The notes under the pieces: generated by a model
The model's database searches: none
Told to the model about the DNA's origin: nothing
Seen by the model: the letters and a program-made list of their open reading frames with translations, nothing else
Translations under genes and position numbers: made by a program
Assembly (NCBI RefSeq): GCF_003334765.1
Contig: NZ_QOWT01000017.1
DNA length: 64,000 nucleotides
DNA from: Escherichia coli
Lineage (GTDB): Bacteria; Pseudomonadota; Gammaproteobacteria; Enterobacterales; Enterobacteriaceae
Reading direction: 5' to 3' (one strand)
Part shown: piece by piece, positions 2,751 through 52,787 of the stretch
Layout: each line of letters opens with the position of its first letter
Numbering within the stretch: the stretch's first letter is position 1

Positions 2751-4081
2751 CACGCCAGTTTCAGATCCCGGGTCATGTTTTCCACGTTGTTTTCGTGGAT
2801 CACCACGTTGTCTTCGATACGAATGCCGCCGAACGGTTTCAGTGCTTCAATTTTCTGCCAGTTGAAGTGCTTGCTGAACTGCCCTTCACGCCACGGTGCC
2901 AGTAGCGATTCGATGAAGTAGATACCCGGTTCGATGGTTAACACCATGCCCGGCTGGAGAATACGGGTGCAGCGCAGGTACGGATATTTTGCCGGTGCCG
3001 CGAGGTGCGTACCGCTATCATCCTGCATAAAACCAGCGACGTCATGCACCTGCAGGCCCAGCGGATGGCCGATACCATGCGGCATAAACGGCCCGGTAAG
3101 ATCGTTTTCGACCATCGCTTCTTCACTCATATCGGTGATGATTTGATGTTTACGCAGCAGTTTGGCGATGCGCTGATGGAACTGGATGTGGTAATCCACA
3201 TAGCTGACGCCTGCTTTCATGGTGGCGATCAGCGCCAGTTGTTCATCATTAACGTCCTTCACCAGCTGCGCGTAGTCGTTGTCACTTTTTGCCGACCAGG
3301 TACGGGTCAGGTCAGCCGCATAGCCGTTATATTCTGCCCCGGCATCCAGCAGGAAGCTGCGCATCTCTTCCGGTGCCTGATGGTCCAGTTTGGTGTAATG
3401 CAGTACCGCAGCGTGTTCGTTAAGCGCCACAATGTTGCTGTAAGGTACGTCGGTATCACGATGACCGGTCGCGGTCAGATAGGCAATGTTGATATCGAAC
3501 TCGCTCATGCCAGAACGGAACGCTTCTTCTGCCGCGCGGTGACCGTTGACCGCCATTTTCTGCGCTTCACGCATACAGGCCAGTTCGTACTCAGTTTTGA
3601 AGGAGCGATAGTAATGCAGGTAGTCGATAACCCCTTTCGGGTTGATGTTGCTGGCCTCAATACCCAGTTGCAGCGCACGTTCCGGCACCGGACCGATATA
3701 ACCGATATTGCCGCGCGCAGCAGGCAGCAGGCTACCAATGCCATCGGCTTTCGGCAGCGCGATCACTTCCACATCTTCAGTCCAGAAAGAGGTCGGCAGC
3801 GGTTCGACGTTGTGCCAGTAATCAACCGGCAGATAGAACCACAGTTTCGGCTTGTTCACGCCATCCACCAGCAACCAGCAGTTTGGCACCTGAGTTACCG
3901 GCACCCACGCTTTGAATTGCGGGTTCACTTTAAACGGATAGGGATGATCGTCGAGAAAAACATTGAACAGCTCGCCGGAGTGAATAAGTAACGCATCCAG
4001 CTTGAAGCGCGCCAGCGCATCGCGAGTCCGTTCTTGTAAGGTAGCTATATGATTTTTATAGAGCGAGGCCAGTGATTCCAT
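2750..4081 (-). CDS. pepQ: Xaa-Pro dipeptidase (prolidase)
   Basis: 443-aa ORF with M24 metallopeptidase features; divergent from fadB. Confidence 0.92.
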
Positions 4082-6460: not shown

Positions 6461-7633
<1,173 letters not shown>

Positions 7634-7639
7634 CCACTT

Positions 7640-7826
<187 letters not shown>

Positions 7827-13277: not shown

Positions 13278-15520
<2,243 letters not shown>

Positions 15521-33718: not shown

Positions 33719-34087
33719 GACCGGGACTCCCAATGCTTAAAATATCGGACAGTTCGGTGGGCACACAGAAACAAATTGGGTTTCAGACCATTAAACAGCC
33801 TGACTCAGCGCGACGGGAAAAATTGAGGTCGCTGACAACCGCTAAGGCTATCAGCAAAAAGGGATAGCCTTAGGAGTTGATCCTGGATGACAGGATAGTG
33901 AGCCAGTATCTACTGGGTGTGTCCAAGGCGAATGTCCTCTTAGAGTGATCGTGCGCGCATGTTACGCCAGCAAAATTTTGCCGTCAACACGCAACAGAAC
34001 ACCACAGAACAATAGTTGAACTTCGCGCTTTTTGGTACTCGTCAAGGTCGCTAACAGGATAAAAAAATCCCACATCCAGGACCTATA

Positions 34088-40622: not shown

Positions 40623-41084
40623 TATGGATTGCCTGTAAAGTTCATCGCTTTCTGCTTTCTATCATCGCAGGAGAAGACGTAAAAGCAAGCGTTTAGCGAC
40701 TCTTTATGAAGTCTGAAAAGTGAGGAAATGCTGCGAGTATAACGCTTACTCGTGGGGATTTATGTTTTGCTGGTAGTTTCGTGATCGGCACCTCGCGCCA
40801 GGATGGCTTTATGCACTATCGCAATGTGGTTTGTTTGTTGTCTTTTTTAGTTCCGTCAGCGTGAGGATGCTCGCTCGGTAAACCTGATCATAATGTTTAC
40901 CAGAAACAGGGAAAGACGTGGTGTAACTGCGCCCTAATGAAGAGACAAATCTTTCGCTACACAGAGACATCATTATTCCGGTGACGGATGAATCGTGCCG
41001 GAACGCAGCCGCAGAGGTGCAAACTTTGAAGCCCTGACCCCATGCCGCTATACTGCCGCCATCACTTAAAAACAGGATACAACA

Positions 41085-41444: not shown

Positions 41445-43991
41445 TCACGAAAAATATTGCTGTAATAGCGGCGTATCGTGATCCTGATTGGCAGGCGGCA
41501 TGTTACCGATAGATTTTGTGCGGAACGGAATCACCTGTTCACGACCATCAACCTTCACAATCTGATAGAACTGCGGCAGGTTGAAGTTGATGAAGCTTGA
41601 GCCGTAGGTAAAACGGTCATGCGATGACGAGTAGAAGCGACTGACGTCACGTACCAGCTCCTCTTTGCTGCCTTCGCAGTGGTGATATACCTCAACCCGG
41701 TTGCTTTCGTCGAGAATGTAGATATTAAAGCCATTCTCGTCTTGCGTTTCTTCGAAAAAGAACTGGATGATCCCTTCGCTGGCAAAGCCGTCCACCACCG
41801 CCGGTAATTTGACGTGATTGGTTTCAACCTGCACTGACAGGCCGTGCAGTTTGTTATGCGAAATCGCGCCATAAAACTCGATGGCGTTTTCCAGTTTCTG
41901 TACCGATACATTCAGGCGTTCGAAGAACAACCCCCAGGTTTGACCAGAAACGCGCAGCGCCTTGAAACGCCCGGTTTCCTGGCGGGTGCTGGAAAGACGC
42001 AATTCAATACACTCAGAAACCAGTTGCTGCACGCGAGTACGAATTAAGCCGCGCAGATGCTGGCTATAACAGAAGACTTCCACGCTATCTGGCGGTGCGG
42101 CGTCCTGATGCATTTTGCCGAGAATAGTTTTCAGGGCTTCGATCATCGATTGCTCGCCGTTGAAGTGCAGCGTACGCACTTCGTTCCACGAGTTGCGGTA
42201 CAGCAGGTCAACGCTACCTACCAGGCAATTTTGATTCTCGCCAAAGCTGAAGACATCCAGCTTACGGAAATCGAAATGCACCACCTGATTGCGGAACGCC
42301 GCTGTCGGGTCATATTCCAGGTTAACGATAATCGCCAGATGGCGGATCTCACACGGGCTGTAGAGCGCCTTCGGTGTCGGTGCAGGTAAGCGCAGCGGGA
42401 AATGGTGCGACACGTCGGCGACCATCTCCTGCAACTTAGGCAAATCGACAATGCCGTTACCTTTAATATACAAACGGGTGCGCGAGGTCAGCAGGCCGTT
42501 AAACCATGCCCACGCCACCAGTTTATTCAGGTAACGGTTATATTCCAGCGGCTGATGGCTGATGATCGACTCAATATTTGGCGCGCGGTTATACAGATAC
42601 CAACCTGAACGGTTAGCCCGGCCCGGCGGCACATAAATAAAGGTCAGATTCGGTTCCGAGAGATCGGGTGAAATCTGCGGGTTTACCAGCGTCACTTTAC
42701 CTGGTAATGCTTCAAACGCGGCATACAGCTTACGCGTCAGCACGCCGATATCCTGCGGACTGGCGGAGACGCTAAGGTTATTGCGACGCGCAAAGCGGAT
42801 CAGATTACGGTAGCTCTGCATCATCGCGTCGAGCAACTCGTTGTGCGCCTCACGCACCTGATCAATCTTCCAGTTAGCGCGGTTATCGAGCATTGCCAGA
42901 CGAGCTTCGTCCCAACCCCACTCGCTCACTAACTGGCTCAACACTGCGCGACGCCAGCCTACGCAGGCGCGTTCACGGCTGAGCTTTTCGCACACTTTTA
43001 AATAGAAGCAGCGACGTACTAAATCCAGACGGGTAAAATCTTCAATCGCCGTCAGGTATTCAGTAACACGCTCCAGCATCATGCAGTATGGATCGAGACC
43101 AAACGATACAATCTCGCCGTCGTGCAAACGCTGTTTGATATCTTTCGCCAGCAGACGTGGGTTCGGGTATTCCCAGGAATAGGCTTCCAGCAGCAGTGTT
43201 TTCAGTACCGCTTTGTATGGGGAATCGATACTCTTGTAGAGCTGCCAAAGGCTGGCACCAAAGTACTCTTCAGCAGAAAGCGAGCTTAAGCCACCGAGAT
43301 CCAGCCATTCATTTGGCGTCAGCACGCCCTGCGCGTAAAGCGTCATCACATAGTCGTCGTAATGCTCTTCTTCGTCGCACGGCACCATATTCCACAGAAT
43401 ACGCTTACCGGCGAGACGCACGGCGGTACGATAAAATTCGTCAAGCAGCAGTATATGCTGGGTGGAGCCACAATCTTCGCCCCCCAGGCTGCCGCTTTCA
43501 TTATGACGGAAGCGGTTTTCATCAATCAGGAAGAAGCTGACTTCCACACCCAGCGAGGCGGCCCAGTTTTCCAGCAGGCTACATTTACGTTGTAGCAATT
43601 GGCGCTCTTCGCTATCGAGCCAGGATTGATGACAGACCCAGATATCCAGGTCAGAGGAACAACTTTGCCCTACGGACGAGGTGCTGCCCATGGTGTATAC
43701 ACCAGTAATTGGAAGCTCACCTTTCGGCGGATCCTGTACTGACATTCCACGATACAGTTCAAGCTCGTTCAGGTAGTGGCGTTGAGTTTCATCAGGCGTG
43801 TAAAGGCAAATGCCTTTGGGAACGTTACCATCAAGGTAACCCGGCATTAGCGGATGGTGATAGTGCAACAATGTCGGCAGTAGACTGTAGACCTGTTGGA
43901 ATGCAGGCCCCATAGCAGCAAGCGCGCGATCCACACGCAATTGATTTATGGCATCCAGTCTCTGTTTCAGAGTCTCAATATAGAGGTACAA
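41445..43991 (-). CDS. cyaA: Adenylate cyclase, class I
   Basis: 848-aa ORF; initiation codon is TTG (plus-strand CAA at 43989-43991). Confidence 0.95.
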
Positions 43992-44145
43992 GACGTATCG
44001 CCTGATTTGCTACCCGTCATGACTGTGATTCCGCCAACATCAACGGTAACACGCGGCATTCGGGATATTTCGTATGTCAAAGGTAACCGTTACCACTTTT
44101 CGCGCCTGGTTTTTTTAGTTTCACGACGAAAAAATGGTCTAAAAC

Positions 44146-44161
44146 GTGATCAATTTAACAC
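44146..44161. promoter_or_regulatory. CRP-binding site in the cyaA promoter region
   Basis: GTGATCAATTTAACAC (TGTGA-N6-TCACA class) about 155 bp upstream of the cyaA start. Confidence 0.6.
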
Positions 44162-44377
44162 CTTGCTGATTGACCGTAAAGAAAGATGCGCTACATACAA
44201 GTGTAGCACCGTTTATTCTCTGTAAATTCCTTATTACAACGGCGTGAAACGCCTGTCAGGATCCACTGCCAGACCTCATTTTACGGTTTGCGCAGGCGTC
44301 TACGTTTCACCACAACACTGACATCACTCTGGCAAGGATGTTAGGATGGACCACGGATGATAATGACGGTAACAAGC

Positions 44378-48523: not shown

Positions 48524-48730
48524 AAAAAAACGCCTGCTCTTATTACGGAGCAGGCGTTAAAACAGGTCTGTATGACAACAAGTGGGTGCTTCACTCAACG
48601 TTGTGTCCATGGTGTCTGATGAGGCATAAGCGACATCTGTCAGTGGACGATAAGCACCGTAAACGGCTCTGCGTCATTCCGGAGTTTATGAGGCACTAAG
48701 GCGAACATAAGAGATGGAATGAGCATCTAC
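48524..48730 (-). ncRNA. glmZ: GlmZ small regulatory RNA (activator of glmS translation)
   Basis: Minus-strand sequence from 48730 reads GTAGATGCTCATTCCATCTCTTATGTTCGCC... and ends in hairpin AACGCCTGCTC-CGTAATAAG-AGCAGGCGTT plus TTTTTTT; matches GlmZ (207 nt) as I recall it; no ORF. Confidence 0.85.
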
Positions 48731-52350: not shown

Positions 52351-52427
52351 TGGTCGGCGAGAGAGGATTCGAACCTCCGACCCACTGGTCCCAAACCAGT
52401 TGCGCTACCAAGCTGCGCTACTCGCCG
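52351..52427 (-). tRNA. proM: tRNA-Pro (CGG)
   Basis: 77-nt match to tRNA-Pro; reverse complement reads CGGCGAGTAGCGCAGCTTGGTAGCGCAACTGGTTTGGGACCAGTGGGTCGGAGGTTCGAATCCTCTCTCGCCGACCA. Confidence 0.93.
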
Positions 52428-52469
52428 AAATACTGCTTTTTGAATTTTTAGTTCAATTCTTTAAAGTCG

Positions 52470-52556
52470 TGGTGCGAGGGGGGGGACTTGAACCCCCACG
52501 TCCGTAAGGACACTAACACCTGAAGCTAGCGCGTCTACCAATTCCGCCACCTTCGC
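52470..52556 (-). tRNA. leuT: tRNA-Leu (CAG), long variable arm
   Basis: 87-nt tRNA; reverse complement begins GCGAAGGTGGCGGAATTGGTAGACGCGCTAGCTTCAGGTG and ends ...GGGGGTTCAAGTCCCCCCCCTCGCACCA. Confidence 0.93.
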
Positions 52557-52576
52557 ATTGTCACAACTTCTAATAA

Positions 52577-52653
52577 TGGGGTGGCTAATGGGATTCGAAC
52601 CCACGACAACTGGAATCACAATCCAGGGCTCTACCAACTGAGCTATAGCCACC
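52577..52653 (-). tRNA. hisR: tRNA-His (GUG) with extra 5' G(-1)
   Basis: Reverse complement reads GGTGGCTATAGCTCAGTTGGTAGAGCCCTGGATTGTGATTCCAGTTGTCGTGGGTTCGAATCCCATTAGCCACCCCA. Confidence 0.93.
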
Positions 52654-52710
52654 ACTACAAATCTTGTTACGCGGTATTACTACCACCGCAGCTCAAGCGC
52701 CGGGACTAAA

Positions 52711-52787
<77 letters not shown>

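What the first reader, a model, noticed from the sequence alone, without database searches (positions are those of the whole stretch)
43989..43991. cyaA initiates at a TTG codon
The 848-aa adenylate cyclase frame begins at TTG (plus-strand CAA). A weak start codon on the cAMP-synthesising enzyme is a known way of holding translation low; changing it to ATG would be expected to raise cyclase levels.
Basis: partly seen in the sequence, partly recalled or inferred. Interest (0 to 1): 0.35.

Follow-up and report, generated by a model that had tools for sequence, protein, structure and literature searches.

The report
cyaA's known TTG start codon
The E. coli adenylate cyclase gene really does begin at a weak TTG start codon that is kept in almost every related species, but this has been textbook knowledge since the 1980s.

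Summary
Confirmed, and already known. Window 41445..43991 (minus strand) is E. coli cyaA, a class I adenylate cyclase of 848 aa. Its first codon is TTG at 43991..43989 (plus-strand CAA), the same start RefSeq annotates. An in-frame TAG lies 7 codons upstream, with no ATG/GTG/TTG in between. The nearest downstream in-frame candidates (TTG18, GTG20, ATG27) have no better Shine-Dalgarno sequence, and using them would delete 17-26 residues that are almost unchanged in 80 species. TTG occupies the homologous codon in 79 of 80 Enterobacterales species. It is also there in two Vibrio species and several more distant gammaproteobacteria. The 63-mer around it is identical in 5419 of 5426 complete E. 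coli genomes, and none carries the otherwise identical ATG or GTG version. The family profiles start at this N terminus. The same paper already notes that the UUG is phylogenetically conserved. There is a tightly conserved block around the start (-15..+30). A possible small hairpin pairs the AGG of the Shine-Dalgarno sequence with the first U of the UUG, but support for it is weak. Interest is low.

The parts
41445..43991 (-). cyaA coding sequence: class I adenylate cyclase, 848 aa plus stop codon
   Evidence: ORF list and translation. The 701 bases around the start are 100% identical to MG1655, with the same RefSeq CDS start. NCBIfam equivalog NF006977 matches residues 1-848 to profile 1-848/848 at 2048 bits, against a cutoff of 1761. 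Pfam PF12633 covers residues 5-200 and PF01295 covers 228-825.
43989..43991 (-). TTG (UUG) translation initiation codon of cyaA
   Evidence: It is conserved in 79 of 80 Enterobacterales species, in 2 Vibrio species and in other gammaproteobacteria. The surrounding 63-mer is identical in 5419 of 5426 E. coli genomes, and 0 genomes carry the exact ATG or GTG version. Published mutagenesis is cited in PMC5499595.
44010..44012 (-). In-frame TAG stop, 7 codons upstream of the TTG; it closes the frame so that no upstream start is possible
   Evidence: In other species the upstream stop lies 7-98 codons away, and upstream ATG/GTG/TTG codons are not conserved.
44001..44003 (-). Weak Shine-Dalgarno core, AGG within UCAGGCGA, with 9 nt between it and the UUG
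   Evidence: The best duplex with the 16S 3' end is only -2.9 kcal/mol. The CAGGCGA sequence is invariant across the Enterobacterales loci.
43962..44006 (-). Conserved translation-initiation block, -15 to +30 relative to the T of the TTG
   Evidence: Mean column entropy is 0.13 bits for -15..-1, against 1.5 for -30..-16 and about 1.8-1.9 further upstream. Third-codon-position entropy is 0.38 in nt 1-30, against 0.86 from nt 61. The neighbouring hemC start is less conserved, at 0.59.
43911..43940 (-). Downstream in-frame alternative starts, rejected: TTG codon 18 (43940..43938), GTG codon 20 (43934..43932), ATG codon 27 (43913..43911)
   Evidence: None has a better anti-Shine-Dalgarno duplex at a workable spacing. 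They lie inside residues 1-30, which are nearly invariant in 80 species with variation concentrated at third codon positions.
44145..44160 (-). CRP-type site TGTTAAATTGATCACG in the cyaA promoter region. Context only: it is the transcriptional feedback element that sits alongside the translational brake.
   Evidence: Read directly from the sequence. TGTTA[A/G]ATTGATCACG occurs exactly once in the upstream region of all 79 loci checked, 108-201 nt before the TTG. Its assignment as the cAMP-CRP repression site is from my memory of the literature and was not tested here.

Best explanation
This is the native initiation site of E. coli cyaA. Ribosomes start at the UUG at window 43991..43989, helped only by a weak AGG Shine-Dalgarno sequence 9 nt upstream, and make the full 848-aa class I adenylate cyclase. 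UUG pairs less well than AUG with the initiator tRNA anticodon. Together with the weak Shine-Dalgarno sequence, this caps CyaA synthesis per mRNA. It acts alongside cAMP-CRP repression of the promoter to keep cyclase levels low. Shown here: the position of the start, the absence of any alternative, and strong purifying selection for TTG specifically. Taken from the literature: the quantitative effect on expression. Inferred: that low CyaA level is the selected trait.
For: The frame is closed by a TAG 7 codons upstream with no canonical start between. The RefSeq CDS start coincides with the TTG. Homologue N termini from Enterobacterales to Vibrio begin at this codon. TTG is at the homologous codon in 79 of 80 species, whereas the upstream frame has stops at variable places and no conservation. 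Codon-periodic variation begins at the TTG, with entropies by codon position of 0.045, 0.0 and 0.38 in nt 1-30, while the sequence upstream of -16 is unconserved. TTG is also present in two Vibrio species, an endosymbiont and three further gammaproteobacterial contigs. The 63-mer is identical in 5419 of 5426 E. coli genomes, and no genome has the exact ATG or GTG variant. NCBIfam NF006977 aligns 1-848 to 1-848, and Pfam Adenyl_cycl_N starts at residue 5. The Shine-Dalgarno duplex is weak at -2.9 kcal/mol, and nothing better precedes TTG18, GTG20 or ATG27. Literature: UUG:GUG:AUG gave 1:2:6 in the cyaA context, and the UUG is conserved in Enterobacterales and other gammaproteobacteria (PMC5499595).
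Against: One metagenome-assembled genome (L065) has TTT at this codon; this may be an assembly error or a real loss. Conservation of TTG shows selection on the codon, but it does not show that low expression is the reason. Genome-wide, UUG-to-AUG switches are generally favoured (PMC5622118), so the retention here needs a specific cause that has not been proven.
Confidence: 0.95

Rival explanations
1. CyaA really starts at a downstream in-frame codon (ATG codon 27, or TTG18 or GTG20), and the TTG only marks the 5' limit of the open frame.
For: These codons exist in frame. ORF finders pick the most upstream candidate by construction.
Against: Residues 1-30 are nearly invariant in 80 species. Variation there falls mainly at third codon positions, which is the signature of translated sequence. 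Pfam Adenyl_cycl_N aligns from residue 5, and the NCBIfam equivalog aligns from residue 1. None of the three candidates has a usable Shine-Dalgarno sequence; the best duplexes sit 12-15 nt away or are absent. Mutating the UUG changes cyclase output (cited in PMC5499595).
Confidence: 0.02
2. The start lies upstream of the TTG, giving a longer N terminus, as some automated annotations in other genomes have it.
For: Gene callers extended the protein to upstream ATGs in a few relatives: P0009 and P0029 and L084. Many species have upstream in-frame ATG, GTG or TTG codons before the first stop.
Against: In this window a TAG closes the frame 7 codons upstream, and no canonical start lies between it and the TTG. 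The upstream candidates in other species are at inconsistent positions, and the sequence upstream of -16 is unconserved at 1.5-1.9 bits.
Confidence: 0.01
3. The start is the UUG, but it is conserved for a reason other than simply being weak. One possibility is that UUG initiation is less sensitive to ppGpp, cold and nutritional state. Another is that U+1 is part of a local RNA structure that pairs with the Shine-Dalgarno AGG.
For: PMC5499595 proposes the stress-robustness idea for cyaA and spoT. The whole block from -15 to +30, not just the codon, is unusually conserved, more so than the neighbouring hemC start. AGGCG/CGUCU can form a 5-bp hairpin whose last pair is A(-12) with U(+1). Every variant seen in Enterobacterales falls in the loop or keeps the pairing (G-C to G-U to A-U). 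The Vibrio sequences can pair CAAGG with CCUUG, which includes the whole UUG.
Against: The covariation is not significant: 194 of 500 shuffles do as well, and there is one double-sided change among 9 distinct sequences. The 81-nt region is no more structured than shuffled sequence, z = -1.05. The hairpin's predicted pair probability swings from 0.06 to 0.83 with the flanks included. Reduced synonymous change in the first 10 codons is also seen in hemC and is a general feature of gene starts.
Confidence: 0.12

Closest known systems
E. coli K-12 cyaA UUG initiation codon (Roy, Haziza and Danchin, EMBO J 1983; Reddy, Peterkofsky and McKenney, PNAS 1985; both as cited in PMC5499595)
   Same: It is the same gene, the same codon and the same 63-nt context; the 701 bases around it are 100% identical to MG1655. 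The functional claim is also the same: a weak start limits cyclase synthesis, and AUG raises it about 6-fold.
   Different: Nothing differs. The window is a K-12-like E. coli chromosome segment, about 99.93% identical to an MG1655 record over 56 kb, with small indels elsewhere.
Other conserved non-AUG starts used as translational brakes or regulatory targets in gammaproteobacteria (infC AUU, spoT UUG, tufA/fus GUG, hupB GUG; PMC5499595 Table 1)
   Same: A phylogenetically conserved non-AUG start on a regulatory or dosage-sensitive gene.
   Different: For infC the rare codon is the sensor of an IF3 autoregulatory loop. No such discriminating factor is known for cyaA, and none was tested here.
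Salmonella and other enterobacterial cya genes (Thorner, Fandl and Artz, Genetics 1990, cited in PMC5499595)
   Same: The same TTG, the same CAGGCGA...GTC context and the same upstream CRP-type site in all Enterobacterales loci sampled.
   Different: The length and sequence of the leader between the CRP site and the initiation block vary, from 108 to 201 nt.

Membership tests
Class I adenylate cyclase (CyaA; NCBIfam NF006977, Pfam PF12633 + PF01295) | Full-length match to the curated equivalog model above its cutoff | tested here: met
   NF006977: 2048.3 bits against a cutoff of 1761, residues 1-848 on profile 1-848/848.
Class I adenylate cyclase (CyaA; NCBIfam NF006977, Pfam PF12633 + PF01295) | N-terminal Adenyl_cycl_N domain followed by the class-I Adenylate_cycl domain | tested here: met
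   PF12633 at residues 5-200 (E = 6.7e-79) and PF01295 at residues 228-825 (E = 3.8e-258).
Class I adenylate cyclase (CyaA; NCBIfam NF006977, Pfam PF12633 + PF01295) | Conserved genomic context: divergent from hemC, next to cyaY | tested here: met
   hemC-cyaA-cyaY in the MG1655 annotation. hemC is divergent in 73 of 78 Enterobacterales loci by motif search and in the Vibrio and other loci.
Class I adenylate cyclase (CyaA; NCBIfam NF006977, Pfam PF12633 + PF01295) | ATP-to-cAMP catalytic activity | not testable with these tools
   Established for E. coli CyaA in the literature. The 701 bases around the start are identical to K-12, and the 848-aa product matches the equivalog model end to end.
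Genuine non-AUG (UUG) initiation site | No canonical start codon between the nearest upstream in-frame stop and the proposed codon | tested here: met
   TAG at 44012..44010; the codons in between are CAA ATC AGG CGA TAC GTC.
Genuine non-AUG (UUG) initiation site | Homologue N termini and coding-type conservation begin at the codon | tested here: met
Genuine non-AUG (UUG) initiation site | Shine-Dalgarno element at a workable distance | tested here: met
   An AGG core 9 nt upstream; weak at -2.9 kcal/mol, but invariant across Enterobacterales.
Genuine non-AUG (UUG) initiation site | The codon itself is conserved across species and strains | tested here: met
   79 of 80 species. 5419 of 5426 E. 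coli genomes have the identical 63-mer, and 0 have the exact ATG or GTG variant.
Genuine non-AUG (UUG) initiation site | Direct experimental proof: N-terminal sequence, or mutagenesis of the codon changing output | not testable with these tools
   Known only through citation: a 1:2:6 ratio for UUG:GUG:AUG (PMC5499595). The primary papers are not held.

The most novel reading that the evidence does not exclude
The UUG may be kept not only because it is weak. Its first U may close a small conserved hairpin with the A of the Shine-Dalgarno AGG: AGGCG-AUA-CGUCU in Enterobacterales, and CAAGG-N6-CCUUG in Vibrio. On this reading the Shine-Dalgarno sequence and the start codon mask each other, and the whole -15..+30 block acts as one tuned or regulated initiation module. 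That could explain why AUG gave 6-fold more expression in the native context but only 3-fold in a lacZ context.
Probability: 0.1. Interest if true: 0.35.

Novelty: already known. Interest (0 to 1): 0.08.

Why it matters
CyaA sets cellular cAMP and therefore the whole CRP regulon, so its dosage matters. The UUG start is one of the classic examples of a weak start codon used as a translational brake. It opens no new question. The only loose end is why UUG is retained rather than GUG or AUG, when genome-wide trends favour switches to AUG.

Tried and rejected
1. I tried to read the primary papers (PMC390610, PMC555187, PMC1204097). None is held, so the experimental claims are cited through PMC5499595.

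2. An Rfam scan of the cyaA leader and start region at E <= 1 found no known RNA family.

3. I tested a hairpin that would sequester the Shine-Dalgarno sequence. All pairs are kept, but the covariation is no better than shuffles (194 of 500). The region's folding z-score is -1.05. The pair probabilities depend heavily on the flanks, from 0.06 to 0.83. RNAfold also predicts that AUG or GUG variants would bury the start in a 7-bp helix with an upstream CAUGACG. That prediction runs against the published rise in expression, and the upstream partner is not conserved. I therefore treat structure predictions here as unreliable.

4. I considered downstream starts (TTG18, GTG20, ATG27) and upstream extensions, and rejected both.

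5. I looked for literature on sRNA control of E. coli cyaA. I found only the Vibrio cholerae Qrr1-4 regulation of cyaA (PMC9732341) and a note on the poor Shine-Dalgarno sequence of P. putida cyaA (PMC11139211).

6. Two encoding-contig look-ups (P0047, P0072) returned nothing.

7. A PDB sequence search found no solved homologue, so the structural role of residues 1-26 could not be judged.

8. The genome-contig scan kept only the best 80 loci, all Enterobacterales. The more distant taxa therefore rest on a handful of contigs.

Full report
**Observation.** The minus strand of the window reads ...AAAUCAGGCGAUACGUC UUG UAC CUC UAU AUU GAG..., with the TTG at 43991..43989, which is CAA on the plus strand. 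The mechanical ORF list gives 41445..43991 (-), 848 aa, starting at TTG. The translation is the E. coli CyaA sequence. In frame, a TAG sits at 44012..44010. The six codons between it and the TTG (CAA ATC AGG CGA TAC GTC) contain no ATG, GTG or TTG. The TTG is therefore the first possible canonical start.

**Identity.** A 701-nt segment spanning the start is 100% identical to E. coli K-12 MG1655 and is present in all 5426 complete E. coli genomes, under the annotations cyaA and hemC. RefSeq places the cyaA CDS start on exactly this base: locus position 3910 corresponds to window 43991. The protein matches the NCBIfam equivalog NF006977 for class I adenylate cyclase end to end, 1-848 on 1-848, at 2048 bits against a cutoff of 1761. 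It also has Pfam Adenyl_cycl_N at residues 5-200 and Adenylate_cycl at residues 228-825.

**Whether the TTG is really the start.** Four independent lines of evidence agree.

- Homologue N termini from Salmonella, Klebsiella, Serratia, Sodalis, Photobacterium and Vibrio begin at the same position: [13 protein letters not shown]... in enterobacteria and MQAYTQKLIQRLD... in Vibrio.
- In 80 species-representative genomes recovered from the GTDB collection, the homologous codon is TTG in 79. In the same loci the nearest upstream in-frame stop lies anywhere from 7 to 98 codons away, and upstream ATG, GTG or TTG codons are not conserved in position.
- Column entropy changes sharply at the start. It is 1.8-1.9 bits upstream of -31, 1.5 bits for -30..-16, and 0.13 bits for -15..-1. 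From +1 the pattern becomes codon-periodic, with entropies by codon position of 0.045, 0.0 and 0.38 in nt 1-30, and 0.056, 0.015 and 0.86 in nt 61-120. Residues 1-30 are nearly invariant at the protein level and vary mainly at third codon positions, so they are translated.
- The downstream in-frame candidates (TTG18 at 43940, GTG20 at 43934, ATG27 at 43913) have no anti-Shine-Dalgarno complementarity at a workable spacing. The TTG has a weak AGG core 9 nt upstream, with a duplex of -2.9 kcal/mol. Starting at Met27 would also remove the first 22 matched residues (5-26) of the Pfam N-terminal domain.

**Conservation beyond chance.**

- Within E. coli, the 63-mer centred on the TTG is identical in 5419 of 5426 complete genomes. 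The same 63-mer with ATG or GTG substituted is found exactly in none. One of the seven variant genomes was inspected, and its change is at -25, not in the codon.
- Beyond Enterobacterales, TTG is the called start in Vibrio owensii and V. ponticus, in an endosymbiont genome, and in two metagenomic gammaproteobacterial contigs (L083 and L092).
- Two further contigs keep TTG at the homologous codon but have an ATG 10 codons upstream (L084) or 1 codon upstream (L091).
- Pseudomonas syringae has a different, longer N terminus that starts at ATG.
- In the part of the window that is collinear with the MG1655 record, annotated starts are 33 ATG, 4 GTG and 2 TTG, so TTG is the rare choice.

**Mechanism and what is already known.** PMC5499595 (Nucleic Acids Res 2017) states that mutagenesis of the cyaA UUG showed UUG, GUG and AUG directing adenylate cyclase synthesis at 1:2:6. 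It cites Reddy, Peterkofsky and McKenney, PNAS 1985, and gives 1:2:3 for a lacZ fusion context. It also states that cyaA begins with UUG in many Enterobacterales and other gammaproteobacteria, and it cites Roy et al., EMBO J 1983, for the control region. The primary papers are not held in the library.

The promoter-side feedback element also appears to be present. A CRP-type site, TGTTAAATTGATCACG, lies at 44160..44145. It occurs exactly once in the upstream region of all 79 loci checked, 108-201 nt before the TTG. Its role as the cAMP-CRP repression site is from my own knowledge and was not tested here.

**What is slightly beyond the textbook.** The whole block from -15 to +30 is very tightly conserved. 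The neighbouring hemC start, in the same genomes, has an entropy of 0.59 over -15..-1, against 0.13 for cyaA. However, hemC also shows reduced third-position variation in its first ten codons, so that part of the pattern is generic.

The sequence AGGCG-AUA-CGUCU can form a 5-bp hairpin that pairs the Shine-Dalgarno AGG with the spacer and with the first U of the UUG. All variants seen in Enterobacterales fall in the loop or preserve the pairing. The Vibrio sequences can pair CAAGG with CCUUG. The support is weak for three reasons:
- The covariation is no better than shuffles, 194 of 500.
- The region is no more structured than shuffled sequence, z = -1.05.
- The hairpin's predicted probability ranges from 0.06 to 0.83 depending on the flanks.

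I keep this only as a low-probability reading. Genome-wide, UUG-to-AUG switches are favoured (PMC5622118). The persistence of UUG here therefore does imply gene-specific selection, but the selected property has not been settled. It could be low dosage, robustness to stress as proposed in PMC5499595, or local structure.

**Verdict.** The finding is already known, and its interest is low.

Noticed in passing
window 43962..44006 (-): The cyaA initiation block (-15..+30) is far more conserved than the rest of the leader (0.13 against 1.5-1.9 bits) and more than the neighbouring hemC start (0.59). A possible AGGCG/CGUCU mini-hairpin joins the Shine-Dalgarno AGG to U+1 of the UUG, but it is not statistically supported.
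   Followed up: partly
window 44145..44160 (-): A CRP-type site, TGTTAAATTGATCACG, occurs exactly once upstream of cyaA in all 79 Enterobacterales loci checked. Its distance from the TTG varies from 108 to 201 nt, so the promoter element and the initiation block are two conserved islands separated by a variable leader.
   Followed up: partly
L065:1501-1503 (MAG, Enterobacteriaceae bacterium bran_bin.7): This is the only locus of 80 without TTG. It has TTT at the start position in an otherwise intact frame, with no stops in the available 730 codons. It may be an assembly error, or a cyaA that must start elsewhere.
   Followed up: partly
E. coli genome collection: 5429 places were found in 5426 genomes. 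A few genomes carry a second copy of the cyaA-hemC segment, and one copy lies on a plasmid.
   Followed up: no
P0009, P0029; L084:601-630; L091:401-406: Where no stop intervenes, gene callers extend CyaA to an upstream ATG, and the conserved TTG then appears as an internal Leu. These are probably N-terminal mis-annotations in public databases.
   Followed up: partly
L084:601-2508, L085:601-2454, L092:401-2675: In several non-enterobacterial contigs, including Vibrio ponticus, cyaA is called as two consecutive ORFs, with the N-terminal and catalytic part separated from the C-terminal domains. These may be frameshifts, pseudogenes or assembly errors.
   Followed up: no
window 44188..44209 (both strands): A terminator-like palindrome (GTGCTACACTTGTATGTAGCGC followed by a T-rich run) lies in the hemC-cyaA intergenic region, upstream of the CRP-type site.
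   Followed up: no
window 33870..33926 (-): The small protein gene ysgD (18 aa) is the only other annotated TTG start in the part of the window that is collinear with the MG1655 record.
   Followed up: no
window 7633..7824: The window differs from the MG1655 record NZ_CP032667.1 by an indel or duplication of about 98 bp in the repeat region after fadA, where Rfam finds naRNA4 at 7692..7769. There are also 16 mismatches and 4 gaps over the remaining 56 kb, so the source is K-12-like but not this record.
   Followed up: partly
window 48524..48730 (-), 14915..15166 (-), 52354..52787 (-): Rfam gathering-level matches were found to the GlmZ sRNA, to the 'Erse' sRNA (which overlaps the 3' part of ubiJ and the ubiJ/ubiB junction), and to a cluster of four tRNAs (annotated Pro, Leu, His and Arg in the MG1655 record).
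   Followed up: no
window 41448..43991 (-): A sequence search found no Protein Data Bank chain matching class I adenylate cyclase (E <= 0.001).
   Followed up: no
window approx. 40781..40959 (+): RefSeq annotates a frameshifted fragment of a DKNYY-family pseudogene between lptM and cyaY.
   Followed up: no
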